The notes below the pieces were generated by a model. The model did not search any database and was not told where the DNA came from. It worked only from the letters and a program-made list of their open reading frames with translations. 64,000 bases of DNA from an uncultured Candidatus Rokubacteria bacterium. Its GTDB lineage: Bacteria; Methylomirabilota; Methylomirabilia; Rokubacteriales; DASRDR01. The DNA lies in contig CAWEXD010000008.1 of the NCBI GenBank assembly GCA_963812945.1, positions 945,107 through 1,009,106 on the forward strand, in the 5' to 3' direction. Made by a program: the position numbers and the translations under genes. The stretch's first letter is position 1. The number at the start of each line of letters is the position of its first letter. Below are positions 2,925-46,898 of the stretch, piece by piece.

Positions 2925-2948
2925 TCAACTGTTGAGGCTTCGGGTGGC

Positions 2949-3965: not shown

Positions 3966-4052
3966 GAAGCGACGCGGCGCGGCGCGACAGCCAGGCGCAG
4001 TGAGCTCGGCGCGAGAGCGGTCAGTGACGCTGAACCCGAGAGGAGAGCGCGA

Positions 4053-6656: not shown

Positions 6657-6726
6657 GAAGGACGCACGCGCTGCCGCGCAGTCGGGCGGCGGCGCCACGA
6701 ATCCACACGTCACGAGGAGGGAAGCC

Positions 6727-7719: not shown

Positions 7720-7726
7720 CGGGAGC

Positions 7727-8485: not shown

Positions 8486-8495
8486 CGGCGTGACG

Positions 8496-8530
8496 CCACA
8501 GGCCGGAGCTCCACAGGCCGCCACAGGCCG
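8496..8530. repeat. three copies of the 10-mer CCACAGGCCG (two in tandem) in an intra-operon spacer
   Basis: Read directly: CCACAGGCCG at 8496-8505, 8511-8520 and 8521-8530, within the 120-nt gap between permease and ATPase genes. Confidence 0.4.
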
Positions 8531-8605
8531 AAGGCCGTCCGATAAGACCCGTCCGATCAACTCCCGCGGAGCCCCGCAGGCGGAAGGTCGCTCGAGGATC
8601 GCCCC

Positions 8606-9370
8606 GTGACTGAGGCAGCGGTCGAGGTTCGGGGCGTCGGCAAGCGGTACGGGACCGGCGTCGAGGCCCTCCGCGACGTTGCCGTGAGCTTCCCGCGGGG
8701 GCGGCTGACGACCCTCCTCGGGCCGAGCGGGTGCGGCAAGACGACGCTCCTCAAGATCATCGCCGGTCTCGTCACGCCGACCGCCGGCGAGGTCCTGGTC
8801 CAGGGGCGGCGGGTCGAGGGCCCCGGCCCGGAGCGCGCGTTCGTCTTCCAGGACTTCGCCCTCCTGCCGTGGGCGACCGTGGTCCGGAACGTCGCGTTCG
8901 GCCTCGAGCTGCGCGGCGTGCCGTCGGAGGCCCGGGAGGCCGCGGCGCGCCGCTGGATCACCGAGGTCGGGCTCACCGGATTCGAGCAGAGCTACCCGCA
9001 CCAGCTCTCGGGCGGGATGCGCCAGCGGGTGGGCCTGGCGCGCGCGCTCGCGGTCGACGCGGACATCGTCCTCATGGACGAGCCCTTCTCGGCCGTGGAC
9101 GAGCAGACGCGGCGGAAGTTCCAGGAGGACCTCCTGGTCCTGCTCCGCGACCACGGCCGGACCGTGATCTTCGTGACCCACAGCATCGAGGAGGCCGTCT
9201 ACCTCTCCGACCAGATCGTGCTGCTGACCCCGCGGCCGGGGACGGTCCACCGGATCGTCCAGCCGAGCGTGGATCGGGGCCGGCGGAACCCGGACGAGAT
9301 CCGCCGCGACAAGGGCTATCTCGACGCGGTCGACGAGATCTGGCAGGAGCTCAAGCGCCATGTGGGGTGA
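8606..9370 (+). CDS. ABC transporter ATP-binding protein
   Basis: Walker A GPSGCGKTT, ABC signature LSGGMRQR, Walker B IVLMDEPFSAVD. Confidence 0.85.
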   Translation: MTEAAVEVRGVGKRYGTGVEALRDVAVSFPRGRLTTLLGPSGCGKTTLLKIIAGLVTPTAGEVLVQGRRVEGPGPERAFVFQDFALLPWATVVRNVAFGLELRGVPSEAREAAARRWITEVGLTGFEQSYPHQLSGGMRQRVGLARALAVDADIVLMDEPFSAVDEQTRRKFQEDLLVLLRDHGRTVIFVTHSIEEAVYLSDQIVLLTPRPGTVHRIVQPSVDRGRRNPDEIRRDKGYLDAVDEIWQELKRHVG

Positions 9371-10133
9371 GGCGCCGGAGATCCGTGGCGGCCGTTCCCC
9401 GCTGGTGACCCTCGCCTCGCTGGCGCTCTGGTGCGCCCTGTGGGAGGCCGTCGGACGGGCCGGGGTGTCGTCCATCATGCCGCCCTTGAGCCGGGTGGTG
9501 GCGAGCGGCGTGGCCGTCGTGGCGTCCGACAAGTTCGCGGCAGCGGCGTGGCTCTCGCTGCGGACTTTCGCGCTCGGCATGGCATTCGCCGTGACGGTCG
9601 GGATCCCGCTCGGGATCCTGATGGCGCGCTCGGAGGCGGTGGGGCGGATCCTGCGGGTCTGGGTCAATGTGTTCGTGAGCGCGCCGGTCTCGGCCCTGGT
9701 GCCGATCCTGATGGCCGTGCTCGGCATCGGCGAGACGACGGTGGTCGTCACGGTGTTCCTGTTCGCCGTGTTCGTGATCATCCTCGACACCGAGGTGGGC
9801 GTCCGGCAGGTGAGCGGCTCGCTGCTCGAGATGGCCTCCTGCTTCGGCGCCGGGCGCGCGGATCTCTACCGGAAGGTCCTGCTCCCGGCCGCGCTGCCGG
9901 AGATCCTGGCCGGCCTCCGCCTCGGCGCCATCCGTGGCGTGAAGGGGGTCGTCATCGGCCAGCTCCTGGTCGCGATCCTGGGGGTGGGCGAGCTCTTCGA
10001 GACGTACTCGAAGCACTTCCTCTTCGAGGAGTTCTGGGCGCTCGTGATCGTGGTCTTCGCGTTCGCCTATGCGGTGTCCGAGGGAGTCGCGCTCCTGGAG
10101 CGCCGCGTCGAGCATTACGCCCGCACCCGGTAG
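9360..10133 (+). CDS. ABC transporter permease
   Basis: 257-aa ORF; start overlaps ATPase gene end by 11 nt; polytopic hydrophobic protein. Confidence 0.75.
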   Translation: MWGEAPEIRGGRSPLVTLASLALWCALWEAVGRAGVSSIMPPLSRVVASGVAVVASDKFAAAAWLSLRTFALGMAFAVTVGIPLGILMARSEAVGRILRVWVNVFVSAPVSALVPILMAVLGIGETTVVVTVFLFAVFVIILDTEVGVRQVSGSLLEMASCFGAGRADLYRKVLLPAALPEILAGLRLGAIRGVKGVVIGQLLVAILGVGELFETYSKHFLFEEFWALVIVVFAFAYAVSEGVALLERRVEHYARTR

Positions 10134-13104: not shown

Positions 13105-15804
13105 CTACCGGCCCGGGACGCGGGTCCCGCGCACGCACAGGAGTCGCAGCTCGGCGGCGGCGGAGCTCGCCGTCACCCGCACGTGACGAGCCGGAGTCGC
13201 CGCGAGCGCGACCTCCACCAGCCTGTCCGAGGCGGCGAAGAGCGTCCGTCCGGCCCACCCCCACGGCGGGACTGCGCGCCCGCCGTCCACGGTCTGCCAG
13301 GCCAGGCCGTCTGGCGAGACGGCGACCTGGACCACCGGCAGCCTGGCGCCGGGCTCGGCAGGGTGCCAGAGCCGCATGCCGGAGACGAGCATCTCGTCAC
13401 CGAGCGCGGCCTCCAGCACGGCGCGCTGGCCGCTCCCACCGGCGGCGGGCTCCCGCGTAGCGTCGCGGCGCGCCGCGGGGCGGCACGGGTCCGTCGACGC
13501 GAGCGGCGAGAGGACACGGACGAGCGCGTGATCACCGAGCGGCTCCGCCACGTACCGCGCTCCCGCCGCCTCGAAGCGCGCGCGTAGCTCGGGGAGATCC
13601 TCGAGCGGCACGAGCAGGCCGTCGTGGGCGCGCAAGCGGACCGGGCTGGCGAGCCACTCCGGCGGCGCCGCGCCGTGGTTGTCGACCACGCCGTTGGCGA
13701 CCAGCGTCGACACGGCGCCTCGCGTGGCCAGACTGACGCGTGCGGACGCCACGGGGTCGGCGAGGAGCCGGTCGAGCCCCTGGGCGCTCAGGCGCTCGAC
13801 GAGCCGCTCCGTGCTCACTCGGCCCGGTGGCGCGTCGGGGACGGCCTCGTAGACCTGGAGCTCGGCCACCCCCCATGGACGGTCCCGGAACGCCTCCACC
13901 GGCCCCGCGCGAAGATAGCGGAGCGGCCTGGGCCTCCCGGCGACCTCGAGCCAGCCGTTCCGGGGGCGGAACACGGGGCGGCCGTCCGCCACGAACGTGG
14001 GGCGCCGTGCGACCGTGGGGACGACGCCGAGCGTCTCCCAGCGGATCCCGTCAGCCGAGCCCGAGAGGCGGAGGGGGCGCACCTCCGTGGTCGGCACCGA
14101 CGGCCAGAAGATGACGCGGGCGACGTCGTGCGAGCGTCCGAGGTCCAGCACGAACGGGTCGAGCGGGCCGTCCGGGCGCGCGCGAGGCCAGACGGTGGCG
14201 AGGTCGCCGTCCGCCAGGGAGGGCGGCGCCGCGGGGTCTCCCGCCACGCGCCAGCCGTCTCGGGGCACCATCCGGTACCCGCGGGCAGGAACGCGGACGT
14301 CCTCGAACAGCTGCCACCCGGGGAGCGGCGTCCGCTGCCACGTGGCGCCGACGGCGGCGAGGTCCGAGGCCACCCCGTCCGCGTACGGCCCGGCCAGGAC
14401 GTCGATCCGCTGGGCCGCATCGGCCGCAACCGCATTGGGGATGTAGACGTCGCGGGCCACCACCGACACCGTGGGACGGTCCAGGAGGAAGGCCCAGCCG
14501 AGCGCTCGCATGGTGTCGTCGACGTAGAGCGCCTCGACCGGTCTGGCGGCCAGGGCGTGGCGGACACCCTCGCGCGCCGCGATCGCCTCGGCTTGCCGCG
14601 CGCGCATCACCGGGGACAGCGGCCAGAAGAACCCGGCGTTCGTCCATGTGGCGAAGAGCAGGAGGAAGGCCAGCAGGCCAGCTCCCACCGCCCGCGACCA
14701 CCGGCTCGCCCGCACGACCAGCGCGCCCGTGAAGACGAGCAGCGGGATGTAGGCCGGCAGCGCGTACCGGGAGGCGTGGCCACGGTCCCCCGCATGGCTC
14801 GAGACGTACACGGCGCCGAGCGACGCTGCGAGGGTGAGCAGCAAGAGCCCGAGCCCCCAGAATCGCGCGCTCGGCTCGGCTCGGCGGCGCCAGCGCGAGA
14901 GCTGGCCGAGGGCCCACGCGACGCCGAGGACGTAGATCACGCAGTTCAGCGCGAGCGCCGCCCGGCGCAGCGGCGTGCTGGCCGTCCAGTAGTAGGTTCC
15001 CAGCAGACGCAGGACCACCTCCGTCCAGAACTCCCGGAGGCCTGCGAGGGACAGGTCGACGCCGGCGCGGAAGAAGTAGGCGACCGACTCCGGCTTGCCC
15101 GGGGCGTGGTCCCCGTGAACGGCGTAGAAGAGCCAGGCCGGCAGCGCCCCCAGCAGAAAGCCGCCCGCCAGAAGCGCGCCGCCGCGCCCGAAGAAGCGGC
15201 GCGGGTCCCGGAGCGCGAGCAGCACCAGACCGGGCGCCAGGATTCCCACCACCTTGAGGCTCGTCCACGCGGCCAGTCCCCCGAGGAGCCCGAGGACGCC
15301 CATCGCCCGGGCCCGGGCGGGCTCGGACTGGGCGGTGAGCGCGACGAGGGCCAGGAGGAGCAGCCAGACCCCGAAGACGTTTGTCTCGAAATGAGGCTCC
15401 GCCACCGTGCTCCAGTACGTGAGGAGGAAAGGCGGCACCGCCGCCAGGGCCAGCGCCGCGCGGCCCGTGGGCTCGTCGACGATGCGCCGGCCGAGCAGAT
15501 AGAGGCCGAGCGGAAAGAGGAGCGACCAGGCGATCGCGTTCAGGCGGACCAGGAGCGCCGAAGGCCCGAACATGGAGAGCGCCGGGACGAGATGGATGCC
15601 GTTCAGGGAGCCCATGTAGGTCTGGCGGTAGAAGAAGACGGGGAAGTTCTCCCCGGCCAGGTAGTGCTTGGCGATGAGGGCGACCGTCGCGTCCTCGCCG
15701 GACAGGGTCCCGTAGAACATCGCGCTCACGCGCACGACGGCGGCGAGCGCGAGCAGGGCTCCGACCGCGGCCCAGCGCCGGCGGGCGCTCGGGCCGCTCG
15801 CCAT
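13105..15804 (-). CDS. membrane GT-C fold glycosyltransferase (PMT/ArnT-like) fused to C-terminal discoidin (F5/8 type C)-like domains
   Basis: Downstream 900 codons of the 1354-aa ORF 13105-17169; ATG at 15802-15804 with upstream GGGGGA; polytopic N-terminal half with acidic first-loop motif SGEDATV; C-terminal ADGDLATVWPRA...FVLDLGRSHDVARVIFW. Confidence 0.6.
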   Translation of the reverse strand: MASGPSARRRWAAVGALLALAAVVRVSAMFYGTLSGEDATVALIAKHYLAGENFPVFFYRQTYMGSLNGIHLVPALSMFGPSALLVRLNAIAWSLLFPLGLYLLGRRIVDEPTGRAALALAAVPPFLLTYWSTVAEPHFETNVFGVWLLLLALVALTAQSEPARARAMGVLGLLGGLAAWTSLKVVGILAPGLVLLALRDPRRFFGRGGALLAGGFLLGALPAWLFYAVHGDHAPGKPESVAYFFRAGVDLSLAGLREFWTEVVLRLLGTYYWTASTPLRRAALALNCVIYVLGVAWALGQLSRWRRRAEPSARFWGLGLLLLTLAASLGAVYVSSHAGDRGHASRYALPAYIPLLVFTGALVVRASRWSRAVGAGLLAFLLLFATWTNAGFFWPLSPVMRARQAEAIAAREGVRHALAARPVEALYVDDTMRALGWAFLLDRPTVSVVARDVYIPNAVAADAAQRIDVLAGPYADGVASDLAAVGATWQRTPLPGWQLFEDVRVPARGYRMVPRDGWRVAGDPAAPPSLADGDLATVWPRARPDGPLDPFVLDLGRSHDVARVIFWPSVPTTEVRPLRLSGSADGIRWETLGVVPTVARRPTFVADGRPVFRPRNGWLEVAGRPRPLRYLRAGPVEAFRDRPWGVAELQVYEAVPDAPPGRVSTERLVERLSAQGLDRLLADPVASARVSLATRGAVSTLVANGVVDNHGAAPPEWLASPVRLRAHDGLLVPLEDLPELRARFEAAGARYVAEPLGDHALVRVLSPLASTDPCRPAARRDATREPAAGGSGQRAVLEAALGDEMLVSGMRLWHPAEPGARLPVVQVAVSPDGLAWQTVDGGRAVPPWGWAGRTLFAASDRLVEVALAATPARHVRVTASSAAAELRLLCVRGTRVPGR

Positions 15805-16691
15805 CAGGTCCCCCGCCGGAGCCGGGGGTCCAGCAGGTCCCGCAGGCCATCGCCCAGGAGGTTGAACGCGAGCACCGTCAGCGAGATGGCCGCCGAGGGC
15901 CAGAGGAGCGGCAGGGCGGAGAGCTGCATGAACCGTCCGGACTGTTCGACCATGCGCCCCCAGGAGGGCGCGGGGGGCGGGGGCCCCAGGCCGAGGAACG
16001 ACAAGCCCGACTCGAGCAGGATGGCATGGCCCGCGGCGAGCGAGGCCTGCACGAGGATCGGCGCGACGATGTTCGGCAAGATCGCCCGGCCCACGACCCG
16101 CGCCGCCGACGCGCCCAGCGCCCGGGCGCTCTCCACGTACTCGAGCTCGCGGATGGCGAGCGTGCTCGCATGCACCACCCGGGTGAAGCGCGGCACGTAG
16201 AGGACGCCGATGACCAGGATCAGGTTGCGGAGCGAGGGGCCGAGGAACGTCACCACGAAGATGCCGAGGAGGATCGGCGGGAAGCAGAGGAGGCCGTCCA
16301 TCACCCGCATGATGCCCGTCTCGACCGGGCCACGGCTGTAAGCGGCGACGCTGCCGAGGAGCGTGCCCGCCGTGGCCGCGACGGCCACGCTCGACAGCCC
16401 CACCGCCAGGGTGATGCGCGCCCCGCGGAGGAGCCGGCTCCACAGGTCCCTCCCGAACTCGTCGGTCCCGAGCAGATGGGCGAAGCTCGGGGGCTGGGCC
16501 TTGGCGCGCGGGTTCAGCGCGTTGGGGTCCGCCGGCGCCAGGACGGGGGCGAAGACGGCCGCCAGGAGCAGGAGCGCCACCGCCGGGCCGGCGACCAGCA
16601 CCTGGCGCGAGCGTAGCCAGACTCGCCGGGGCCTGCTCGCGGCCTCCGCGCGCAGCGGCGCGGCGGTGAGGGTGGACGGAGTCGTGCTCAC
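15804..16691 (-). CDS. peptide/nickel-type ABC transporter permease (DppC/OppC-like)
   Basis: 295-aa ORF; polytopic; stop TGA overlaps the ATG of the downstream glycosyltransferase gene (TGATG). Confidence 0.8.
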   Translation of the reverse strand: MSTTPSTLTAAPLRAEAASRPRRVWLRSRQVLVAGPAVALLLLAAVFAPVLAPADPNALNPRAKAQPPSFAHLLGTDEFGRDLWSRLLRGARITLAVGLSSVAVAATAGTLLGSVAAYSRGPVETGIMRVMDGLLCFPPILLGIFVVTFLGPSLRNLILVIGVLYVPRFTRVVHASTLAIRELEYVESARALGASAARVVGRAILPNIVAPILVQASLAAGHAILLESGLSFLGLGPPPPAPSWGRMVEQSGRFMQLSALPLLWPSAAISLTVLAFNLLGDGLRDLLDPRLRRGT

Positions 16692-16703
16692 GGGGATGGC
16701 GCG

Positions 16704-17657
16704 TCAGCCATAGCGGATGCGGGGGTTCAGGAGGGCGTAGCAGAGATCGGTCAGGAGGTTCACGGCCACGAAAAGCGTGGATCCGAGCAGGACCACCCCC
16801 TGGATCACCGGGTAGTCCCGGGTGCCGAGGGCGCTCAGGAGGAGCGCGTTCATTCCCGGCCAGCTGAAGATGTACTCCACCAGCACCGCGCCCGCGAACA
16901 TCGAGCCGACCTGGAGCCCGACGATGGAGGCGACCGGGAGGAGCGCGTTCCGGAGGACGTGGCGCCACGCCACGGCCCGCTCGGCGAGCCCCTTGGCCCG
17001 GGCCGTGCGCGCGAAGTCTCGCGCGGCCTCCTCCAGGTAACTCGACCGGGTCATCCGCATCACGGTGGCCAAGGGCGCGACGGCCAGCGCGAGCGCCGGT
17101 AGCGCCAGGTGACGCAGGAACCCGGCGGGATTCTCGCCGAGCGGGACGTAGCCCGCCGGCGGGAGCCACCCGAAGCGGAGCGAGAAGACGAGGACCAGCA
17201 GCATGCCGACGACGAAGACCGGCATCGAGAAGCCGGTCAAGGCGAGGGCCGAGGCCGCCGGATCTGCGAGCTGCCCGCGGCGCCGGCCGGCGAACATCCC
17301 CAGGGGAACGCCGATGGTCACCGCCAGCGCCGTGGCCGGGACCACCAGCTGGAGCGTGCGTGGAAGCCGGTTGGCGAGGTCGCGCGCGACGGAACGGTCG
17401 TCGAGGAGCGAGGTGCCCAGGTCGCCCCGGCCGACGCGGGCGAGCCAGGACAGGTACTGGGCGACCAGCGGGCGGTCCAGCCCGAGTCGCGCGCGGACGC
17501 GGGCCAGCTGCTCCGGGCTCGCCTGGGCGGAATCCCCCCCCAGGATGAGGATCGCCGGGTCACCCGGGAGGAGGTGGATCGAGAAGAAGAGGACCGTCGC
17601 GACGACCCACAGGAGGACGAGCGCCAGCCCGAGCCGGCGCAGGAGGTAGATCCACAC
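16704..17657 (-). CDS. peptide/nickel-type ABC transporter permease (DppB/OppB-like)
   Basis: 317-aa ORF; N-terminus MWIYLLRRLGLALVLLWVV; C-terminal LNPRIRYG typical of this permease family. Confidence 0.8.
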   Translation of the reverse strand: MWIYLLRRLGLALVLLWVVATVLFFSIHLLPGDPAILILGGDSAQASPEQLARVRARLGLDRPLVAQYLSWLARVGRGDLGTSLLDDRSVARDLANRLPRTLQLVVPATALAVTIGVPLGMFAGRRRGQLADPAASALALTGFSMPVFVVGMLLVLVFSLRFGWLPPAGYVPLGENPAGFLRHLALPALALAVAPLATVMRMTRSSYLEEAARDFARTARAKGLAERAVAWRHVLRNALLPVASIVGLQVGSMFAGAVLVEYIFSWPGMNALLLSALGTRDYPVIQGVVLLGSTLFVAVNLLTDLCYALLNPRIRYG

Positions 17658-17679
17658 GAGGCGGGAGTGGCCCCGGGGC

Positions 17680-27161: not shown

Positions 27162-29093
27162 TCAGGCCGTCGGCGCGGGACCGAGACCCGGCCCGCGGGC
27201 GAAGAGCTCGTCCCAGAGCTGCAGGGACAGGACGCCGAACAGCCTCAGCCCGCGCTTGGCGCGGCCGGAGCGATGGAGCGCGAGGGCCGAACCGACCGCC
27301 GCGGGATCGAAGTAGCCGGTCCGCCGGAGCTCGGCGGGCGAAAGCAGGGCTGCCGCGAAGGGCGGGAGCGGCTCGCGGAACCACTGCTGGATCGGGACGG
27401 CGAGCCCGCGCTTCGGGCGCCTGCGGATCTCGTCGGGCAGGACGTCGCGTAGCGCCTCACGCAGCACGCGCTTCTCCATCCGCCACCACAGCTTGACGCC
27501 CGCCGGCATCGCCGTGGCGAGCGCGATCACCTCGGGGTCCAGGAACGGGACCCGTGCTTCGACCCCGCGAGCCATCGATGGCCGGTCGAGCGCCGGCAGG
27601 ATCAGTCCCGGGAGCCGCGTGGTCAGCTCGACGTACTGGTGCTGGGCGGTCCGGCTCCAGCGCGAGAAGCGGTCGGGGAGTGGAGCCGGCTCGAGCGGCT
27701 CCTGTCGTGTCAGCGCCTCGCGGAGGTCGGGCGAGAGGACCGCCATCGACTCGCCCTCGCGGAAGAGTCGAATCAGCTCGGCGTGACGCGCCGGGGCCGG
27801 CAGCCCAGCCGCGGCGAGCGCCCGGTAGAGGTGTGGGCGCCAGGCCCGGAGGCCGAGCGCCGTGCCGAGGACGCGGCGGACCGGTGCAGGCACTGGCGCG
27901 AGCGGGCCGACCCAGCGGTCATGCCGGAACCACGGGTAGCCCCCGAACAACTCGTCCGACCCCTCCCCGGTGAGGACCGCCTTGACCTGCCGGGCGGTCG
28001 CCTCGGCCAGGACAAGTCGCGGGATCTCGAGCCCCGACATCGAGGGTGTCTCGGCATGCCAGACGGCTCCGGGCAGGCGCGCCAGGGCATCGCGCCCGCA
28101 CAAGACGCGCTGACTGGCCAGGCCGAAGGTCGGGAAGCGGTCGAGCGTGGTCCGGCGCCCGATCTCGTCTACCTCCGGGTATGCGAAGCCCACCGAGAAG
28201 GCCGGAACCGGCGGCGGTACCGCGCCCCGTATGAGGCTTGCCACACCGCTCGAGTCCACCCCGGCGCTGAGCCAGATGCCGATCGGGACGTCGCTCCGCG
28301 CGTGGAGCCGCACGCTGGCGTCGAGCGTGGCCCGAAGCGCGTCGGCCCAGCCGGCCAGTCCCATGGGGCGGCCGGGGTCCCGGGCGTCCGGGAACTCGAG
28401 GTCCCACCACCGCCGGAATGTTGCCTGCCCGCGCTCCCAGACGAGGTAGTGGCCCGGCGGCACCTGGCGTATCCCGGCGAACAGGGTGCGCGGGTCGCGG
28501 ACGAATCCCAGTGTGAACAGGTCGCGCACGGCTTCGAGGTCCAGGCGGCGGTCGAGGGTGGCGCCTCCGTCGTCGTCACCGACCCGGTCCGCTGCGAGCA
28601 GGGCCTTCTGCTCCGAGCCGAACCAGAGACCGCTCCGGTCGATCGCATAGTGGAGGGGCTTGATGCCGAGGCGGTCCCGGGCCAGGAGGAGGCGCCGCGC
28701 GGGGGCGTCCCAGAGGGCCAGGGCGAACATCCCGCGCAGCGCCGCCAGGCACTCGATCCCGCGCTCCTCGTAGAGGTGGACGATCACCTCGACATCCGAG
28801 CCAGTCCGGAACCGGTGTCCACGGGCGGCGAGCGCGTCCCGCTGGGCCTCGAATCCGTAGATCTCGCCGTTGCAGATTACGACCACGGTCCCGTCCTCGT
28901 TCGCGATCGGCTGCTGCCCGCCGGCCGGGTCGATGATCGCGAGTCGGCGGACACCGAGCCCGACGCCGGGCCCGCGCCAGAAACCCACGCCGTCGGGTCC
29001 GCGGTGGCGCACGGCCTCCGTCATGCGCCCCAGCAGGCCCTCGGGGGCCGGGCGCTGCGGATCCGACCAGGCGACCCCTGCAATCCCGCACAC
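27162..29093 (-). CDS. asnB: asparagine synthase (glutamine-hydrolysing)
   Basis: 643-aa ORF; N-terminus M-CGIAG with Cys2 nucleophile (GTG start after AGGAGG); motifs SAGVDSS, TGEGSDELFGGY. Confidence 0.8.
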   Translation of the reverse strand: MCGIAGVAWSDPQRPAPEGLLGRMTEAVRHRGPDGVGFWRGPGVGLGVRRLAIIDPAGGQQPIANEDGTVVVICNGEIYGFEAQRDALAARGHRFRTGSDVEVIVHLYEERGIECLAALRGMFALALWDAPARRLLLARDRLGIKPLHYAIDRSGLWFGSEQKALLAADRVGDDDGGATLDRRLDLEAVRDLFTLGFVRDPRTLFAGIRQVPPGHYLVWERGQATFRRWWDLEFPDARDPGRPMGLAGWADALRATLDASVRLHARSDVPIGIWLSAGVDSSGVASLIRGAVPPPVPAFSVGFAYPEVDEIGRRTTLDRFPTFGLASQRVLCGRDALARLPGAVWHAETPSMSGLEIPRLVLAEATARQVKAVLTGEGSDELFGGYPWFRHDRWVGPLAPVPAPVRRVLGTALGLRAWRPHLYRALAAAGLPAPARHAELIRLFREGESMAVLSPDLREALTRQEPLEPAPLPDRFSRWSRTAQHQYVELTTRLPGLILPALDRPSMARGVEARVPFLDPEVIALATAMPAGVKLWWRMEKRVLREALRDVLPDEIRRRPKRGLAVPIQQWFREPLPPFAAALLSPAELRRTGYFDPAAVGSALALHRSGRAKRGLRLFGVLSLQLWDELFARGPGLGPAPTA

Positions 29094-29180: not shown

Positions 29181-29321
29181 ATGTCAACGGAACCCCAGAC
29201 CGACACCACCCCGCCGGAGCCCAGCCGCTACGAGCCGCCGCGCATCGAGATTCAGCTCACGGCCGATGCGCTCGAGCGCGAGATCCTGTACGCGGGTGAG
29301 CCATCCGGCCCGGAGCCCTGA
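29181..29321 (+). CDS. small hypothetical protein (46 aa), candidate
   Basis: ATG at 29181 preceded by AAAGGGGGGA; reads MSTEPQTDTTPPEPSRYEPPRIEIQLTADALEREILYAGEPSGPEP; GC-rich third positions; below the ORF-track length cutoff. Confidence 0.3.
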   Translation: MSTEPQTDTTPPEPSRYEPPRIEIQLTADALEREILYAGEPSGPEP

Positions 29322-29726
29322 TCCCGGGCGAGGCGTGACCGCCGGGGGCACCAGCCGACCGCGAGCGGGCACGGCGGCTGTCAGGGAGTGAGCTTGGCCG
29401 GGCTCCTCATGGCCCGTAGCGCGGCCACGGTCTCGGCGGCCTCCCGACCCTTGGCCTCGATGAGGTCGAGCAGCTCTTCCGGGGTGCGGCGGTCCTCCTG
29501 GCTGCGGGCGTTGGGATTGACCGCCTTGAGGTCGTGGTTCCGCGTTGCCCTTCTGTTGGCGGGGTGAAAACAGGCCCAGCTCGCTATTCGCGTGCACAGC
29601 CAGACGCGATGATAGCGTGGCCACCGGTTCTCGAGCGCCGAGCTCCCCGCTGAACGCTTGTCGCGGCGGCGCGGCGGGCGGGCTACCGTCGGGATGGTCC
29701 GGCCTGATGCCTGCGGCGGGGCCTCG

Positions 29727-31040
29727 TCACTCGACCGCGGGCGGCCGAGTGGTGCCCGCGAGGCGCTCGCGGACCATGGCGATGTGGAGCCGGAGCGTGT
29801 AGAGCGAGTCGCTGTAGTAGAGCGGAACCTGGAGGTGGCGGGCCTTGTCCTCCAGCCGCTCGAGCCCCGCGTTCAGCGCTTCCCGCGAGGTCCCATCCTT
29901 TTCGAGATCAATGAGGTCTCGGTACATCCGGACGATGCGCCGGCGGACGTTCCAGGCGTACAGGGCGGGCATGAGGCGGAACAGGGGATACATCAGGCCG
30001 ACGACGGGGATGAGGAAGACGAGGGCCCGGCCGATCGCGACCGCGAGCCAGAAGGGCAGGTGACGCTGAAGGAACGGCCGGCCTGAGCGGAAGTACTGGC
30101 GCGCCTCGTCGGTCAGGGGCAGGTCGACCGCTTCCGCGGCCGGAAATTGCCTCGTCTGGTGGAAGATTCCCGGCCCGGAATGGACCTGCTCCGCCGCATC
30201 GAGGAGCAAGGACTGGATCGCGGGGTGCAAGTCCTTGCGCACCACCAGGCTGGCCTTCGGCGCGAAGAGGGTGGCCGCCGCCGGCGGCCGGTTCTTCGCC
30301 ATGTCTCCCGCGCCTGCGGGCACCGTGAGCTTGCTGAGGAAGGGGTACAGCGCCACGTACGTGTCGGCGCGGGGGAAGCTCACGAGCGTGATGCCGTCCT
30401 CGGTGAGCAGCTGGCGGACGGCGGGGGAGTCCCAGGCCGCCAGCATGAGTGCCGCGTCGATCTCGCCGCGGATCAGCGCGTCGGCGGCCGCCTGGTGGGA
30501 GAGCGCGAGCAGCTGGGCGAAGCCCTGGCTCAGCCGCTGCCGCGCCAGCAGCTGGAGCACGAGCGCCCGGGTGCCGCTCCCCTCGGGTCCGATCGAGATC
30601 TTCTTCCCCCGCAGCGCCTCCAGGTCCCTGCCTTCGAGCGCGCCTCGGTGGAAGAACCAGAGCGGCTCGTAGAACACGGTGGCGAGTGCCCCGAGATCGG
30701 GCGACTCCTTCTGGTTCGTGAGGCCGCCTTGGACCAGCCCGATGCCGACACCCGAGCGAGGGTCGCGCAAGAGCGTCAGGTTCTCCATCGCCCCCGCGGT
30801 CGGGCGCAGCTCGAGCGTGATGCCGTGACGGCCAAGGACCTCCTGGTAGCGCTTGCCCACCTCTTGATAGGCGCCCCCGTCGGGGCCGGTGGCCATGGTC
30901 ACGGTGCGCGGCGGCAGCGGGCTCAGCGCGCTGGTGGTGTACCAGATGGCCGCGATGACGAGGGCGGCCGCCACCGGGATCAGGAAACGGGATCGATGCG
31001 CGGCGGAGGACTGCCGGGCGCTGCCGGCGGGCGGTGTCAC
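29727..31040 (-). CDS. TAXI-family TRAP-type solute-binding protein homolog with N- and C-terminal hydrophobic segments
   Basis: 437-aa ORF; N-terminal hydrophobic segment, TAXI-like core (VTMATGPDGGAYQEVG), C-terminal hydrophobic stretch LPFWLAVAIGRALVFLIPVVGLMYPLF then charged tail. Confidence 0.5.
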   Translation of the reverse strand: MTPPAGSARQSSAAHRSRFLIPVAAALVIAAIWYTTSALSPLPPRTVTMATGPDGGAYQEVGKRYQEVLGRHGITLELRPTAGAMENLTLLRDPRSGVGIGLVQGGLTNQKESPDLGALATVFYEPLWFFHRGALEGRDLEALRGKKISIGPEGSGTRALVLQLLARQRLSQGFAQLLALSHQAAADALIRGEIDAALMLAAWDSPAVRQLLTEDGITLVSFPRADTYVALYPFLSKLTVPAGAGDMAKNRPPAAATLFAPKASLVVRKDLHPAIQSLLLDAAEQVHSGPGIFHQTRQFPAAEAVDLPLTDEARQYFRSGRPFLQRHLPFWLAVAIGRALVFLIPVVGLMYPLFRLMPALYAWNVRRRIVRMYRDLIDLEKDGTSREALNAGLERLEDKARHLQVPLYYSDSLYTLRLHIAMVRERLAGTTRPPAVE

Positions 31041-31078: not shown

Positions 31079-32296
31079 TTACCGGCCGTACATCCGGGTC
31101 GCGGCCGAGTAGCCGGGGAGGCGACCGGGCTCCCAGACGTGCTTTCGCGCGACAGCCTCCACCAGGTCGGCGCCCCAGCCGGGACGCGTCGGGAGGACGA
31201 CCTCACCCCGCTCGATGACGGGCGGCGCGTCCACCAGCTCGTCCTTCCACGGCACGTCGTCCACGTCGATCTCCATGATCCGCACGTTGGGGACGCTCGC
31301 GCAGAGGTGGAGGGAGTGGAGGGTGGAGAGGTGGCTGTAGTAGTTGTGCGGGGCGACGTTCAGCTCGTAGGTCTCGGCCAGCTCCGCCACCTTGCGCGAC
31401 TGGGCGAAGCCATTCCAGGGCACGTCGACCATGACGACGTCCATCGCCCGGGCCTCGAAGAACGGGCGGTAGCCGCGGAGGCCGTAGAGGTTCTCGCCGG
31501 AGCAGATCGGCATCGGCGCCTCGTCCTTGACCTCGCGAAGCGCGCGCTCGTCGTACATGTCGATCTCGACCCACATCATGTCCAGGCCCGCCAGGGCGCG
31601 GCACACGCGGATCGCCGCCTCGGGCTTCATGTTGAAGTTGAGGTCGAGGGCGAGGCCGACGTCCGGGCCCACGGCGCGCCGGAAGGTCCCCAGGAGCAGC
31701 TCGATGTGGCGGACCATCTCCGACGTCACCGTCTGGTCGGTGGTCCCGGGCCCTCCGCCGAAGCCGGGGAAGTGGACGCGCGCGGGGTCTCCGGGGTAGA
31801 CGATGTTCGTCTTGAGCGCCCGGTAGCCGCGCCGGACGACTTCCTCGCCGAGCCGGTGGACGTCGTCCATCGTGCGGAGGGGCGGGACCCCGATGATGGC
31901 GGCGTTCATGGCGCGCGAGGTGCCGCAGTGGGACCAGTAGACGGGCTGGCGGAGGCGGAACGGCCCGCCGAAGAGCTCCGTCACCGGCAGCCCGAGAGAC
32001 TTCGCCTTCAGGTCCCAGAGCGCGAGCTCGATCCCGGCGATCGCCTTGGCGGCGATCCCGCCCGGGCTCTGCCGCGCCATCCGGTAGAGGTCCCAGTAGA
32101 TCCGCTCGACCGGCCGTGGGTCCTGGCCGACGAGGATCGGCTCGAAGTCCCGCACCGCGCCCACGACGCCGTAGGGGTTCCGGCCGTCCGAGCACTCGCC
32201 GTAGCCGGTCAGGCCCTCGTCGGTGCGCACGGCGACGAACTGCCAGGGCCGCCACCCCGCGTCGACGACGAACGTCTCGATCTCGGTGATCTTCAT
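31079..32296 (-). CDS. mandelate racemase/muconate lactonizing enzyme family protein (enolase superfamily dehydratase-like)
   Basis: In-frame segment of ORF 31079-32536 starting MKITEIETFVVDAGWRPW; ATG at 32294-32296. Confidence 0.7.
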   Translation of the reverse strand: MKITEIETFVVDAGWRPWQFVAVRTDEGLTGYGECSDGRNPYGVVGAVRDFEPILVGQDPRPVERIYWDLYRMARQSPGGIAAKAIAGIELALWDLKAKSLGLPVTELFGGPFRLRQPVYWSHCGTSRAMNAAIIGVPPLRTMDDVHRLGEEVVRRGYRALKTNIVYPGDPARVHFPGFGGGPGTTDQTVTSEMVRHIELLLGTFRRAVGPDVGLALDLNFNMKPEAAIRVCRALAGLDMMWVEIDMYDERALREVKDEAPMPICSGENLYGLRGYRPFFEARAMDVVMVDVPWNGFAQSRKVAELAETYELNVAPHNYYSHLSTLHSLHLCASVPNVRIMEIDVDDVPWKDELVDAPPVIERGEVVLPTRPGWGADLVEAVARKHVWEPGRLPGYSAATRMYGR

Positions 32297-43310: not shown

Positions 43311-44264
43311 TCAGTCCCCGTATCGGATCCGGGGCTCCAGGTAACCGTACAACAGATCGACGGCCAGGTTCACGGCCATGAAGAGACCGGCGACGAACAG
43401 GATGGTGCTCTGCGTGACCGGGTAGTCCCGCTGGTAGATGGACCAGAGGACCAGGCGGCCGACCCCGGGCAGGGTGAAGACCTCCTCCACGACGACCGTC
43501 CCGCCGAGCAGGATGCCGAGCTGGAGCCCCACCACCGTCACCACCGGGATCATCGCGTTCTTCAGCGCATGCTTCAGCACGATGGCCTTGCCGGCCAGGC
43601 CCTTGGCGAGGGCGGTCCGCACGTAGTCGGAGCCGAGCACGTCGAGCATGCAGGAGCGCGTCGTCCGGGCCACGTTCGCGGCGGCCGCCGTGCCGAGGCA
43701 GAGGGCCGGGAGGACCATGATGGTGAGGTTCCGCCTGGGGTCCGTGAAGAGGTCGACCCACATGATCGGCGGCATCCAGCGGAGGTAGAGAGAGAAGAAC
43801 AGGATCAGCATCGTCCCCTGCCAGAAGACGGGCACCGACAGCCCGAGGAGCGTGCCGACCCGCGTGACGTGGTCGAGCGGCCGGTCGCGCCAGACGGCCG
43901 AGAGGATCCCGGCCGTCACCCCCAGGAGGAGCGAGAAGGCGACCGCGAGCACGGTCAGCTCGACGGTGACCGGCAGGCGTTCGAGGATCAGCGAGAGGAC
44001 CGGCTTGCCGGTGCGCCACGAGGTGCCGAGGTCGCCCCGGAGCAGCTGGCCGAGCCAGCGCCCGTACTGGACGTACCAGGGCTGGTCCAGGCCGAAGAAG
44101 CGCTTCAGCTGGTCGACCATCTGCTGGCTCACGACCGCGTCGGCGCCGATCATCTGCTCCACCACGGTGCCCGGGATGAGGTGGAGCATGAGGAAGACGA
44201 GGACGGTCAGCCCGAGCAGGGTGAGCGCCATCGAGTAGAGGCGGACGACGAGGTACCGGCCCAT
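43311..44264 (-). CDS. peptide/nickel-type ABC transporter permease (DppB/OppB-like)
   Basis: 317-aa ORF; polytopic; C-terminal LEPRIRYG. Confidence 0.8.
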   Translation of the reverse strand: MGRYLVVRLYSMALTLLGLTVLVFLMLHLIPGTVVEQMIGADAVVSQQMVDQLKRFFGLDQPWYVQYGRWLGQLLRGDLGTSWRTGKPVLSLILERLPVTVELTVLAVAFSLLLGVTAGILSAVWRDRPLDHVTRVGTLLGLSVPVFWQGTMLILFFSLYLRWMPPIMWVDLFTDPRRNLTIMVLPALCLGTAAAANVARTTRSCMLDVLGSDYVRTALAKGLAGKAIVLKHALKNAMIPVVTVVGLQLGILLGGTVVVEEVFTLPGVGRLVLWSIYQRDYPVTQSTILFVAGLFMAVNLAVDLLYGYLEPRIRYGD

Positions 44265-44360
44265 CAGCGCGTCACAGAGAGGAGGGGCCGGGGCCCCGAC
44301 ACTCGGCCCCCGGACGGGCGAGTGCCGGAGCTCCGGCCCGGGCCTCCCGGCGGGATCTCG

Positions 44361-45947
44361 CTACGCCTTGTCGAGCCAGACCTGCTCGAAGCCGTAGAGC
44401 AGGGTCGTCGGATGCTGCTTCCAGTTCTTCACGGTGCCCTGCGTGAAGTCGATGTGGTCGGCCGAGAAGAGCCAGAGGTGCGGTACGTTCTCGAGGATCA
44501 TGATCTGGGCCCGGTCGTAGATGTCCTTTCGCTTCTTCACGTCGAATGTCCGGCGACCTTCCTCGAGGAGCGTGTCGAGCTCCGGCACGCTCCAGCTGTT
44601 CCAGTTCTGGCCCTTCGTGGAATGCAGCGCCCGGAAGAACGCGACGTCCGGATCGCCGTAGCCGGGCGTCGTGTTCATGGTCATGTCGAAGTCCTTGGCG
44701 AGCCACCGCTTGATCCAGACCGCGTACTCGACGTTCTCGATCTCGGCGTTGATACCGATGCGCTTGAGGTTCGCGGCGACGACGGGCGCGCCGTTGACCA
44801 TGGTCGGGAAGGTGGGGATGACCCCGAGCTTCACGGTGAAGCCGTTGGCCTGGCCGGCGTCGGCCATGAGCTTCTTCGCCTTGTCGACGTCGGGCTTGTA
44901 GTACTTCATCCACTGCTCCTCGGGGAGCAGCCACTGCTTCATCGGCGCGGTGCAGGGGGCCGTGAGGCGGCCGAAGCCGGCGGCGGCCACCTTGAGGACC
45001 GCGGCGCGGTCGACGGCGTAGCTGATCGCCTGGCGCACGCGGACGTCCTTGAGCGGGCCCCGGCTCGCGTTGATGTTGAGGAAGTCGAAGCCGAGGCGCG
45101 AGGAGCGGTAGCCCGTGAGCGCCTTCTCCTCCTTCAGGAGGGTCCAGTTCTTGTTGTCCTCGATGAAGGCGTGGTGGATCTGGCCGGTCCGGAGCGCGGC
45201 GACCGAGTTCGCCTCGTCCGGGATCGTGCGTATGACCACCTCGTCGACGTGGGGCAGGCCCTTCTTGAAGTAGTTCGGGTTCTTCTTGAACACCATCTGC
45301 TGCTCGACCTTCCAGTCGGCCAGCATGAACGGGCCGGTCCCCATCGTCGTCTTGTTCAGGTCGCCGCCGCCCTTGGCGACGCCCGCCTCGCTGATGATGA
45401 AGGCGTAGAACCCGGCGAGGGCGGGGATGAGGGACGCGAACGGCTCCTTCGTGTGGAACTTGACCTCGTGCTTTCCGGACGGCTCGACCTTGTCGACGGC
45501 GATGAAGTCGGCCTTCCCCGCCGCGGACTTCTCGAGCAGCCGGTCGAACGTGAACTTCACGTCGGCGGAGGTGAGCTCCTGGCCGTCATGCCACTTGACG
45601 CCCTGTCGGAGCTTGAACGTCCAGGTGAGCCCGTTGGCGCTCACCGCCCAGGACTCGGCCAGCTCCGGCTGCGGCGTCATGGCCTCGTCGAAGCGGACGA
45701 GCTGGTTGTACGTGAGCGGGGAGCGCCGGCTCCGAGAGAACGCGGGGACCAGCTGGGGATCGAGCCCGGTCGCCTCGTTGTTCTGGGCCGAGATGATGGT
45801 CCCGCCGTCCTTCGGGGCCTGGGCGGACGCGGACCGGCCGAGGGCCAGCGTGCCCAGGACGGCGCCGCCGGCCTTCAGGACGTCGCGGCGGCTGGGCGCG
45901 CCAGCGCGGGTGGCGTCGTGGTCGAGCTGTCGGTCACGCATGCTCAT
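44361..45947 (-). CDS. peptide/nickel ABC transporter substrate-binding protein (family 5 SBP), Tat-exported
   Basis: ORF 44361-46637; ATG at 45945-45947 preceded by AGGAGG; twin-arginine motif [14 protein letters not shown]. Confidence 0.8.
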
Positions 45948-45973
45948 GGGATCCTCCTGAACGCGAGGGTTGG

Positions 45974-46861
45974 TCACTGGGAACGCGGGTCGAGGACGTC
46001 GCGGAGGCCGTCGCCGAGCAGGTTGAAGGCGAGCACCGCCGCCACGATGGCGAGGCCGGGGAAGACCGAGATCCAGGGGGCCGTCTCGAGGTAGGTGCGG
46101 CCCTCGTTGAGCATGTTGCCCCAGGACGGCGTCGGGGGCTGGGCCGAGAGCCCGAGGTAACTCAGCGAGGCCTCGATCAGGATTGCCTGCGAGAACGCCA
46201 CCGTGCCCTGGACGACGAAGGGCGAGAGCACGTTCGGCAGCACGTGGCGGAGCGCGACCTTCGCGCGGCCGGCCCCGAGCGCGCGCACCGCCTCGACGTA
46301 CTCCTTCTCCCGCTCCGCGAGAACGGGGCCTCGCATCACACGGGCGAAGATCGGCGTGTAGACGATGGCGATGGCGATCACCGCGCTGTTGACGCCGGGC
46401 CCTCGCATCGCGGCGATGCCGACCGAGAGCAAGAGGCCGGGGACGCTGAAGAACACGTCCATCACGCGGCTGACCAGGTTGTCCCAGCGCCCGCCCAGGT
46501 AGCCGGCGGTGAGCCCGAGCGCGCCGCCGATCAGCATGGCCGAGCCGATGGAAACCGAGGCGACGTAGAGGGAGATGCGCGACCCGTGGATCACCCGGCT
46601 CAGCACGTCGCGACCCAGGCGGTCGGTGCCGAGCCACGCCTGGCGGCCCGGCGGTGTCTCCAGGAGGTCGAAGTTCTGCTCGTCGGGCTCCACGGGCGCG
46701 ATGAGGCCGGCGAGGACGGCGACCAGGACGATCAGGACGGCGACGACCAGACCGCCGAGGACGACCGAGCTCCGGAGGGCACGCCGGATCCGCCGGCCGA
46801 GGCGCGGCGCTTCACGCCGCGTACCGGGAGCCACGAGCACCGCTTCGCGTGTGAGCTCCAA
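45974..46861 (-). CDS. peptide/nickel-type ABC transporter permease (DppC/OppC-like)
   Basis: 295-aa ORF; polytopic; C-terminal [13 protein letters not shown]. Confidence 0.8.
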
Positions 46862-46898
46862 CGTCGCGATGCTAGGCGGGCCCGTCGGGGGCTGTCAA

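What the first reader, a model, noticed from the sequence alone, without database searches (positions are those of the whole stretch)
29727..31040. TAXI-type solute-binding domain flanked by hydrophobic segments, without TRAP permease genes
The 437-aa protein has an N-terminal hydrophobic anchor, a TAXI-like binding core and a C-terminal hydrophobic segment followed by a charged helical tail. No TRAP membrane component (DctQ/DctM-like) is encoded nearby. A membrane-tethered binding domain with a cytoplasmic tail could be a sensor or receptor rather than a transport subunit.
Basis: partly seen in the sequence, partly recalled or inferred. Interest (0 to 1): 0.45.

Follow-up and report, generated by a model that had tools for sequence, protein, structure and literature searches.

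The report
Two-pass membrane TAXI receptor, no permease
This gene encodes a solute-binding domain of the TAXI type held in the membrane at both ends, with a conserved cytoplasmic three-helix tail; it belongs to a large family found in many bacterial phyla that is never encoded next to the transporter such domains normally serve, so it probably acts as a receptor, though its ligand and partner are unknown.

Summary
Window 29727-31040 (-) encodes a real 437-aa protein: N-terminal hydrophobic helix (~18-40), TAXI-type binding core (47-318), a second hydrophobic helix (330-362) and a helical charged tail (363-429). The 64-kb window has no TRAP permease gene.

The architecture defines a large family. 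The TM2+tail module alone finds 1313 cluster representatives, nearly always at the C-terminus of 430-470-aa proteins, in at least nine phyla including cultured Bradyrhizobium and Caldimonas. TM2 (53% mean identity), the juxtamembrane motif (78%) and the tail helices (44-50%) are about as conserved as the binding core (57%). TM1 (20%) behaves like a generic anchor.

About 90 loci from diverse lineages show no recurrent DctQ/DctM gene. The only recurring neighbours are sulfatases (17 of 79 loci, 9 adjacent) and PF13557 outer-membrane barrels, and neither occurs in this window.

The tail is a generic three-helix bundle with no detectable HAMP or other output domain.

Best reading: a stand-alone transmembrane solute receptor, or a docking subunit for an unlinked partner. 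Public annotation is generic, and I found no published description.

The parts
29727..31040 (-). Whole gene: 437-aa two-pass TAXI-like membrane protein (GTG start at 31040, stop at 29727-29729)
   Evidence: identical protein P0001; more than 3000 homologs
30990..31040 (-). Residues 1-17: short, poorly conserved, positively charged N-terminus, inferred to be cytoplasmic
   Evidence: 19% mean identity; net charge about +1.8 before TM1
30921..30989 (-). Residues 18-40: TM1, a signal-anchor (or possibly a cleavable signal peptide); hydrophobic but not conserved in sequence
   Evidence: 20% mean identity; 0 of 23 columns at 80% or more
30903..30920 (-). Residues 41-46: conserved proline-rich linker P-L-P-P-R-T between TM1 and the first strand
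   Evidence: P41, P43 and P44 invariant in A1; 66% mean identity
30087..30902 (-). Residues 47-318: periplasmic TAXI-type two-lobed solute-binding core
   Evidence: top seven PDB fold hits are all TAXI SBPs; target TM-score 0.71-0.76
30054..30086 (-). Residues 319-329: juxtamembrane motif S-G-R-P-F-L-Q-R-H-L-P, the most conserved segment of the protein
   Evidence: 78% mean pairwise identity across phyla
29955..30053 (-). Residues 330-362: TM2, with conserved F330, W331, I344-P345, P352 and P358
   Evidence: 53% mean identity; 11 of 33 columns at 80% or more
29754..29954 (-). Residues 363-429: cytoplasmic module. The TM2 helix extends to about residue 382, and helices 386-401 and 407-429 pack with it into an antiparallel three-helix bundle.
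   Evidence: tail-only model pLDDT 81.7; the module is specific to this family
31079..32296 (-). Upstream same-strand neighbour, 38 nt away: enolase-superfamily (MR_MLE) acid-sugar-dehydratase-like gene. Syntenic in Rokubacteria relatives and possibly co-transcribed. It is context, not a proven part of the system.

Best explanation
The gene encodes a stand-alone transmembrane solute receptor built on a TAXI binding domain.

Shown: a poorly conserved N-terminal hydrophobic helix puts a TAXI-type Venus-flytrap domain in the periplasm. A very conserved juxtamembrane motif (GRPFLQRxLPFW) leads into a conserved second TM helix. That helix runs unbroken into the cytoplasm and packs with two further helices into a roughly 70-residue three-helix bundle. 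The whole arrangement is conserved in a large family spanning many phyla, and the family is not genetically linked to TRAP permeases.

Inferred: the binding cleft is intact and binds one common small ligand, because the domain stays about 57% identical across phyla. Ligand-induced closure is passed through the rigid juxtamembrane/TM2 helix to the cytoplasmic bundle. The bundle then acts by protein-protein contact on a partner encoded elsewhere, either a regulator or a membrane protein.

In some lineages the gene sits in same-strand clusters with a periplasmic sulfatase and a PF13557 outer-membrane barrel. This suggests a role in sensing or handling sulfated organic compounds or their products, at least in those lineages.
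For: The architecture is real and conserved. The core has the TAXI fold, and the TAXI signature cleft positions are kept: Y58, Q104, E125 and G156 correspond to VcGluP Y45, Q93, E125 and G156. The TM2+tail module finds 1313 representatives, 599 of them at E<=1e-10, almost always at the C-terminus of 430-470-aa proteins. The family occurs in Methylomirabilota, Nitrospirota, Alpha-, Beta-, Gamma- and Deltaproteobacteria, Planctomycetota, Acidobacteriota, Gemmatimonadota, Brocadiia and Myxococcota. Mean pairwise identity is 78% for the pre-TM2 motif, 53% for TM2, 44-50% for the tail helices, 57% for the SBP core and 20% for TM1. No DctQ/DctM lies in the window and none recurs in about 90 homologous loci. 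Sulfatases lie within 10 kb in 17 of 79 loci and within 1.5 kb in 9 of those (binomial p about 9e-4, 7 of 9 on the same strand), scattered over the family tree. The trio PF13557, TAXI-TM and sulfatase occurs in L032 and L057.
Against: The tail has no recognisable output domain: no HAMP, kinase, GGDEF or DNA-binding module, and its fold is a generic three-helix bundle. No conserved partner gene was found, and no fusion of the tail to an output domain exists among the representatives examined. Sequence-specific conservation of a TM helix is more typical of subunits that dock into membrane complexes than of sensors. The segment just before TM2 is as positively charged as the segment after it, so the positive-inside rule alone does not fix the orientation. 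The sulfatase link is absent from this window and from the Rokubacteria and Burkholderiales clades. Whole genomes were not searched for unlinked TRAP-QM genes.
Confidence: 0.42

Rival explanations
1. It is a doubly anchored binding subunit of a transporter encoded elsewhere, either a TAXI-type DctQM permease or another secondary carrier as in the TAXI-GltS system. The conserved TM2 and tail would dock it permanently to that membrane partner and raise its local concentration.
For: The core is a true TAXI fold with the signature cleft residues. Membrane tethering of TAXI SBPs is common, as cited in PMC11574862 and PMC12344293. TAXI SBPs can pair with non-TRAP carriers (PMC12344293). Strong sequence conservation of TM2 and the juxtamembrane motif fits an intramembrane docking interface. 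In the Rokubacteria clade the gene follows catabolic enzyme genes (MR_MLE, PhyH, ADH), as transport SBP genes often do.
Against: No permease of any single family recurs next to the gene in about 90 loci from at least nine phyla. TAXI SBPs were reported as always associated with fused DctQM (PMC5812351). A first anchor already tethers the protein, so a second TM plus a conserved 70-residue cytoplasmic bundle is more than tethering needs.
Confidence: 0.3
2. It is an accessory component of periplasmic hydrolase systems. It would capture a sulfated or lipid-like substrate or product near the inner membrane for sulfatases and outer-membrane PF13557 channels, without signalling or transport of its own.
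For: Sulfatases are enriched and adjacent. Same-strand trios of PF13557, TAXI-TM and sulfatase occur in L032 and L057. P0222 reads from the tail directly into a sulfatase N-terminus. Patatin, PLA1 and LssY_C genes appear among immediate neighbours.
Against: Only about 20% of loci show the link. It is absent from this window and from the Burkholderiales context. A purely periplasmic helper would not need a conserved cytoplasmic module.
Confidence: 0.12
3. It assembles into a homo-oligomeric ligand-gated channel or self-sufficient transporter, with the two TM helices of several subunits lining a pore.
For: It has two TM helices per subunit flanking a ligand-binding domain. TM2 carries conserved prolines and a glycine. 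Ion-channel and exchanger genes (MscS, bestrophin-like, NhaA) occur sporadically nearby.
Against: TM1 is not conserved in sequence (20% identity), which is unlike a pore-forming helix. There is no P-loop or polar pore-lining pattern. No fold match to any channel was specific.
Confidence: 0.04
4. It is an ordinary soluble TAXI TRAP binding protein, and the C-terminal hydrophobic segment and tail are an annotation or assembly artefact.
For: Public annotation calls family members 'TAXI family TRAP transporter solute-binding subunit'.
Against: The same C-terminal module is present and conserved in more than a thousand cluster representatives from independent assemblies, including complete genomes of cultured bacteria. 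Coding-frame GC3 signal is maintained over the whole ORF.
Confidence: 0.01

Closest known systems
Characterised TAXI solute-binding proteins (Thermus thermophilus GluBP 1US4/1US5/8U79; Vibrio cholerae VcGluP 8S4J/9IBO; VCA0144 9IBP; Ehrlichia 4DDD)
   Same: It has the same two-lobed fold (Foldseek E 1e-18 to 1e-16, target TM-score 0.71-0.76). It shares the signature motifs GxxGxxY, Q, EP and GSGTR, and the positions equivalent to VcGluP Y45, Q93, E125 and G156 are kept.
   Different: Identity is only about 21%, and the protein falls just below the TIGR02122 cutoff. Characterised TAXI SBPs are 300-350-aa soluble or lipid-anchored proteins encoded with a DctQM permease. This protein has a second TM helix, a conserved cytoplasmic three-helix bundle and no permease gene nearby. 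Three of the six VcGluP ligand contacts differ (S75, Y200, M201).
Membrane-anchored TAXI SBPs (Roden et al. 2023, Biol Chem 404:715; known to me only through citations in PMC11574862 and PMC12344293)
   Same: The TAXI domain is tethered to the cytoplasmic membrane at its N-terminus.
   Different: Those are described as lipoproteins or N-terminally anchored subunits of secondary TAXI transporters. Here there is no lipobox cysteine, there is an additional conserved C-terminal TM and cytoplasmic module, and no transporter gene is linked. I could not read the paper itself, so I cannot exclude that it mentions C-terminal helices.
BP0403-GltS, the TAXI-GltS system of Bordetella pertussis (PMC12344293)
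   Same: It is a TAXI domain with an unconventional, elongated architecture and no TRAP membrane gene in its neighbourhood, which shows that TAXI domains have been recruited outside TRAP systems.
   Different: BP0403 is a lipoprotein with an extra N-terminal globular domain and a helical dimerisation domain, and it is translationally coupled to gltS. This protein has no N-terminal domain, has a C-terminal TM plus tail, and has no GltS or other constant carrier next to it.
Orphan TTT binding proteins (Bug/TctC family), including BctC, which takes part in signal transduction (Antoine et al. 2005, cited in PMC5812351)
   Same: These are SBPs of a secondary-transporter family encoded without a membrane partner, and at least one has a signalling role.
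   Different: They belong to a different SBP family, are soluble periplasmic proteins, and have no TM helix or cytoplasmic module.
Sensor proteins with periplasmic SBP-fold domains between two TM helices (for example histidine-kinase sensor domain 3H7M, or BvgS-type Venus-flytrap sensors)
   Same: The topology is the same: TM1, periplasmic SBP-fold domain, TM2, then cytoplasmic helices. The fold search lists 3H7M among distant hits.
   Different: Those proteins continue into HAMP, PAS, kinase or other output domains. Here the protein ends after a roughly 70-residue three-helix bundle with no detectable similarity to HAMP or any Pfam or PDB entry.

Membership tests
TAXI-type solute-binding protein (fold and sequence family) | Match to the Pfam family model NMT1_3 (PF16868) above its gathering score | tested here: met
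   75.5 bits against a cutoff of 27, covering residues 49-318 and nearly the whole model
TAXI-type solute-binding protein (fold and sequence family) | Match to NCBIfam TIGR02122 (TRAP_TAXI) above its curated cutoff | tested here: not met
   82.2 bits against a cutoff of 84.35 for the window protein. Distant family members score 65.5 (Bradyrhizobium, L076) and 74.8 (Myxococcaceae, L073). These are near misses, so the three members tested sit at the edge of the model.
TAXI-type solute-binding protein (fold and sequence family) | Two-lobed alpha/beta Venus-flytrap fold closest to solved TAXI structures | tested here: met
   The top seven Foldseek PDB hits are all TAXI SBPs (E 1e-18 to 3e-16, target TM-score 0.71-0.76). 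The next hits (TauA, SsuA) are eight orders of magnitude weaker.
TAXI-type solute-binding protein (fold and sequence family) | Export to the periplasm by an N-terminal signal or anchor | tested here: met
   An N-terminal hydrophobic helix at residues 18-40 is preceded by basic residues. No signal-peptide predictor was available, so cleavage versus retention is not decided.
TAXI-type solute-binding protein (fold and sequence family) | Conserved ligand-cleft residues | tested here: inconclusive
   Positions equivalent to VcGluP Y45, Q93, E125 and G156 are kept, while S75, Y200 and M201 are not. The kept positions are also present in the other TAXI structures aligned, so they do not identify the ligand.
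TAXI-TRAP transporter (as its binding subunit) | [quoted passage not shown] | tested here: not met
   None is present in the 64-kb window. None appears among recurrent families in 271 flanking genes and 98 polytopic membrane proteins of 79 loci. None is present in ten further Pfam-annotated contexts. An unlinked permease elsewhere in the genome was not testable.
TAXI-TRAP transporter (as its binding subunit) | SBP of 300-350 aa composed solely of two alpha/beta domains and a hinge (PMC12344293) | tested here: not met
   The protein is 437 aa, with an additional TM helix and a cytoplasmic three-helix bundle.
TAXI-TRAP transporter (as its binding subunit) | Delivers substrate to the membrane component for uptake | not testable with these tools
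   This requires transport assays or genetics.
Two-TM sensor with HAMP linker | HAMP domain (two amphipathic helices and a connector) directly after TM2, followed by an output domain | tested here: not met
   There is no Pfam HAMP hit for the protein or for 33 tails. The tail profile against PDB sequences gives only Aer2 at E=5. The model is an antiparallel three-helix bundle in a monomer prediction. No output domain follows.
TAXI-GltS type system (BP0403-like) | N-terminal globular domain, a helical dimerisation domain, and an adjacent gltS gene | tested here: not met
   The TAXI core starts seven residues after TM1. All multi-TM neighbours in the window are ABC permeases or EamA. No recurrent carrier family occurs near homologs.

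The most novel reading that the evidence does not exclude
This family is a previously unrecognised class of bacterial transmembrane receptor. A TAXI Venus-flytrap domain would be coupled through a conserved juxtamembrane-TM2 helix to a new cytoplasmic three-helix output module. It would work independently of TRAP transport and signal periplasmic availability of one common ligand (possibly sulfate, a sulfate ester or its product) to an unlinked cytoplasmic or membrane partner. It is widespread across at least nine phyla.
Probability: 0.3. Interest if true: 0.7.

Novelty: new variant of a known kind. Interest (0 to 1): 0.52.

Why it matters
TAXI proteins are the least understood branch of TRAP transport, and only a few have a known ligand. 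The field currently treats them as 300-350-aa soluble or lipid-anchored subunits encoded with a DctQM permease. A 2025 paper on one departure from that rule (BP0403-GltS) was presented as a new transporter class.

This analysis points to a second departure that appears to be much larger. Thousands of proteins annotated as 'TAXI family TRAP transporter solute-binding subunit' or 'C4-dicarboxylate ABC transporter substrate-binding protein' are integral membrane proteins with a conserved cytoplasmic module and no linked permease.

If they are receptors, they define a new input-output design for bacterial sensing, and automated metabolic reconstructions miscount them as transporters. If they instead dock to an unlinked carrier, they would reveal a new way of assembling SBP-dependent secondary transport. 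Either way the family is experimentally tractable, because members occur in cultured Bradyrhizobium and Caldimonas.

Tried and rejected

2. A 'Rosetta stone' fusion of the tail to an output domain: rejected. Representatives whose tail match stops short of the C-terminus carry R/S/P-rich frameshift read-through. The one exception, P0222, runs into a sulfatase N-terminus and is probably a frameshift or chimera.

3. A conserved operon partner: rejected. All-against-all clustering of 5649 ORFs from 79 loci and bulk Pfam scans found no universal neighbour. The patatin, PLA1, MlaE, PqiA, MscS and PHO4 hits are few or confined to single clades.

4. Ligand inference from VcGluP contacts: not possible. 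The residues that are kept are also present in the other TAXI structures aligned, so they do not discriminate between ligands.

5. Searches that failed or returned nothing: the exact-protein context look-up for P0001 had no record; the afdb50 fold library was not installed; Roden et al. 2023 is not in the held library; Rfam and tRNA scans of the window found nothing.

6. Promoter and terminator scan around the gene: nothing useful. No clear Shine-Dalgarno sequence precedes the GTG start, but the N-terminus is shared with close homologs.

7. Lasso-peptide reading of the neighbouring AsnB-like gene and small ORF: not supported by NCBIfam. The lasso cyclase model scores 176 bits against a cutoff of 525, and the small ORF has no hit.

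Full report
**1. The observation.** The ORF listing shows a 437-aa ORF at 29727-31040 on the minus strand with a GTG start. Its codon-position GC (0.73/0.52/0.88) is that of a real gene in this roughly 72% GC genome. An identical 437-aa protein is on record from a 4.05-Mb contig, and more than 3000 homologs were scored; the top 120 are nearly all 390-485 aa, with one 277-aa fragment. Pfam NMT1_3 (PF16868) covers residues 49-318 (E 7e-21). NCBIfam TIGR02122 (TAXI) scores 82.2 bits, just below its 84.35 cutoff. Only two segments are strongly hydrophobic, at about residues 18-40 and 330-362. An AlphaFold2 model (33-sequence alignment, mean pLDDT 75.9) gives a helix at 11-39, an alpha/beta core at 46-327, one long helix at 330-382, and helices at 386-401 and 407-429.

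**2. No TRAP permease.** I called genes across all 64 kb by frame-specific GC3 and counted hydrophobic segments. The nine polytopic proteins are eight ABC permeases (BPD_transp_1) and one EamA transporter. The nearest genes are as follows:
- Upstream on the same strand: an MR_MLE enolase-superfamily dehydratase-like gene whose stop is 38 nt from the GTG, a PhyH dioxygenase, and a PIG3-type quinone oxidoreductase.
- Downstream: an AsnB-type amidotransferase, an Exo_endo_phos protein and an amidase.

No Rfam family, tRNA or convincing promoter or terminator lies around the gene.

**3. The fold.** Foldseek of the model against the PDB returns TAXI proteins as the top seven hits: 1US4, 9IBO, 8S4J, 8U79, 9IBP and 4DDD (E 1e-18 to 3e-16, target TM-score 0.71-0.76, about 21% identity). 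The next hits, TauA and SsuA, are eight orders of magnitude weaker. Sequence and profile searches of PDB sequences find the same set.

I mapped the published glutamate contacts of VcGluP (PMC11574862) through the profile alignment. Y45, Q93, E125 and G156 correspond to Y58, Q104, E125 and G156 here, and Q104 and E125 are at least 90% conserved in the family. S75, Y200 and M201 are replaced. The retained positions are also present in the other TAXI structures aligned. They therefore argue for an intact TAXI-type cleft but do not name the ligand.

**4. The architecture defines a family.**
- *Close homologs.* An alignment of 33 homologs at 58-90% identity shows invariant residues throughout, including P329-F330-W331, I344-P345, P352 and P358 in TM2, and L376, E397, Y414 and R424 in the tail.
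- *The tail module.* Using only residues 318-437 as query against 1.84 billion cluster representatives gave 1313 hits at E<=1e-3 and 599 at E<=1e-10. In full-length proteins the match sits at the C-terminus of a 430-470-aa protein.
- *Taxonomic range.* A scan of one genome per species found 152 relatives. The 79 loci kept come from Rokubacteria/Methylomirabilota (the window's clade, up to 95% identity), Nitrospirota, Alpha-, Beta-, Gamma- and Deltaproteobacteria, Planctomycetota, Acidobacteriota, Gemmatimonadota, Brocadiia and Myxococcota, at 45-66% identity outside that clade. A more distant branch reaches cultured Burkholderiales such as Caldimonas, Eleftheria and Ideonella.
- *Annotation.* Public names are generic: 'TAXI family TRAP transporter solute-binding subunit' or 'C4-dicarboxylate ABC transporter substrate-binding protein'.
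- *Conservation by region*, over 80 members:

| Region | Mean pairwise identity |
|---|---|
| N-terminus | 19% |
| TM1 | 20% (0 of 23 columns at 80% or more) |
| PLPP linker | 66% |
| SBP core | 57% |
| Pre-TM2 motif | 78% |
| TM2 | 53% (11 of 33 columns) |
| Tail helices | 44-50% |
| Loop between tail helices 1 and 2 | 19% |

TM1 behaves as a generic anchor or signal. The juxtamembrane motif, TM2 and the tail are constrained as strongly as the binding domain.

**6. Genomic context across the family.**
- *Pfam-annotated contexts of ten homologs* show no DctQ/DctM.
- *Systematic analysis of the 79 reference loci.* I clustered 5649 ORFs all against all and bulk-scanned 271 flanking genes and 98 polytopic membrane proteins against Pfam. 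No TRAP family is among the recurrent ones, and no neighbour is universal.
- *Sulfatases are the one clear signal* (PF00884). They lie within 10 kb in 17 of 79 loci, or 17 intact genes in 1.31 Mb of flank. In 9 loci they are within 1.5 kb, where about 3 would be expected if placement within the flanks were uniform (p about 9e-4). Seven of those 9 are on the same strand. The linked loci are scattered over the family tree.
- *A repeated trio.* L032 (Deltaproteobacteria) and L057 (Rhizobiales) both have the order PF13557 outer-membrane barrel, TAXI-TM, sulfatase on one strand.
- *Clades without the link.* The window has no sulfatase (tblastn). Its clade instead keeps the MR_MLE-PhyH-ADH genes upstream. 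In Burkholderiales the gene sits between an Aminotran_4 gene plus a small zf-CHCC gene and a Formyl_trans_N gene.

**7. Interpretation.**
- *Shown:* a conserved two-hydrophobic-helix TAXI protein family with a specific TM2-plus-tail module and no genetic link to TRAP permeases.
- *Inferred:* the topology is N-terminus in, binding domain out, tail in. This rests on the need to export an SBP fold, the basic residues before TM1 and after TM2, and the continuous TM2 helix in both models. The pre-TM2 segment is also basic, so the charge rule alone is not decisive.
- *Single ligand:* the binding domain stays about 57% identical across phyla, so I infer one common ligand and not a diversifying nutrient specificity.
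- *Function of TM2 and tail:* TM1 already tethers the protein, yet TM2 and the tail are under strong selection. I infer that they transmit or dock, and are not merely an anchor.

My preferred mechanism (confidence about 0.4) is a stand-alone receptor whose cytoplasmic bundle acts on an unlinked partner. The main rival (about 0.3) is a permanently docked binding subunit of a carrier encoded elsewhere. TM-helix conservation fits this rival well, and the TAXI-GltS precedent makes it credible (PMC12344293). A helper role in sulfatase/PF13557 systems may apply in the linked lineages.

**8. Comparison with what is known.** Reviews and recent papers describe TAXI SBPs as 300-350-aa two-domain proteins. 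They are soluble, lipoprotein or N-terminally anchored, and are encoded with a fused DctQM (PMC5812351; PMC12344293; PMC11574862). The one published exception, BP0403, has a different added architecture and a GltS partner. Four full-text searches found no description of a TAXI with a C-terminal TM helix and cytoplasmic module. Roden et al. 2023 could not be read. I file this protein as a TAXI-fold protein, because the fold and Pfam criteria are met. I do not file it as a TAXI-TRAP transporter subunit, because linkage to DctQM and the canonical architecture were both tested and not met.

**9. Verdict.** The sensor interpretation is partly supported. The feature is a new variant of a known kind. 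It is of moderate to good interest to transport and signalling specialists, and it is testable in cultured hosts.

Noticed in passing
window 29181-29321 (+) and 27162-29093 (-): A 46-aa ORF (MSTEPQTDTTPPEPSRYEPPRIEIQLTADALEREILYAGEPSGPEP) with a G-rich RBS-like stretch lies divergent from an AsnB-type amidotransferase gene. That gene is absent from the syntenic relative L001, so it is an insertion here. The 'YEPPxI' motif recalls RiPP/lasso leader peptides. NCBIfam gives no hit for the peptide. The enzyme passes the ordinary asparagine synthase model (403.9 bits against a cutoff of 267.1) and also matches the XrtA/PEP-CTERM amidotransferase model (429.6 bits, below its 816.9 cutoff). The lasso cyclase model is far below its cutoff (176 against 525).
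   Followed up: partly
window ~29381-29520 (-): The 630-nt gap downstream of the TAXI gene contains a high-GC3 reading frame ending in ...EDRRTPEELLDLIEAKGREAAETVAALRAMRSPAKLTP* with no ATG, GTG or TTG start in frame. It may be a gene remnant or an unusual small gene.
   Followed up: no
L032:8512-13960, L057:8869-14297; also L024, L040, L049, L061, L076: Same-strand clusters of a PF13557 (Phenol_MetA_deg) outer-membrane barrel, the TAXI-TM gene and a sulfatase recur in unrelated classes. Some loci add a small secreted protein with two weak CusF-like repeats, which occurs in 9 loci. This looks like an undescribed envelope module for sulfated compounds.
   Followed up: partly
protein P0222 (metagenomic, 264 aa): The family tail is truncated in its last helix and reads straight into a sulfatase N-terminus with the CxPSR signature. 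This is either a frameshift or assembly chimera of adjacent genes, or a rare true fusion.
   Followed up: no
L087, L088, L089 (Caldimonas brevitalea, Eleftheria terrae, Caldimonas thermodepolymerans): In these Burkholderiales the family gene sits in a conserved housekeeping-like string: Aminotran_4 (ilvE-like), a 68-72-aa zf-CHCC protein 22-68 nt upstream, the TAXI-TM gene, then Formyl_trans_N (purU-like). The tiny zinc-ribbon protein immediately upstream is a possible partner candidate.
   Followed up: no
window 6667-10133 (+): A separate NMT1/THI5-like binding protein (6667-7719) lies with two BPD_transp_1 permeases (7703-8485 and 9351-10133). This is an ordinary NitT/TauT-type ABC importer, showing that the genome also uses this SBP clan conventionally.
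   Followed up: partly
window 15804-17666, 43311-46876, 58843-60838: Three pairs of Opp/Dpp-type ABC permease genes (BPD_transp_1 with OppC_N or BPD_transp_1_N) fall within 64 kb, an unusually high density of peptide-type ABC importers.
   Followed up: no
window 1-4000: GC content is 0.63-0.64 here against 0.69-0.74 in most of the window (0.675 at 44001-46000), and the frame-specific GC3 signal is weaker. This may be a recently acquired segment.
   Followed up: no
L034 and L067 (same contig DATENC010000018.1); L016 and L027 (same MAG): Some genomes carry two paralogous copies of the family. In one Burkholderiales MAG they are about 38 kb apart on one contig.
   Followed up: no
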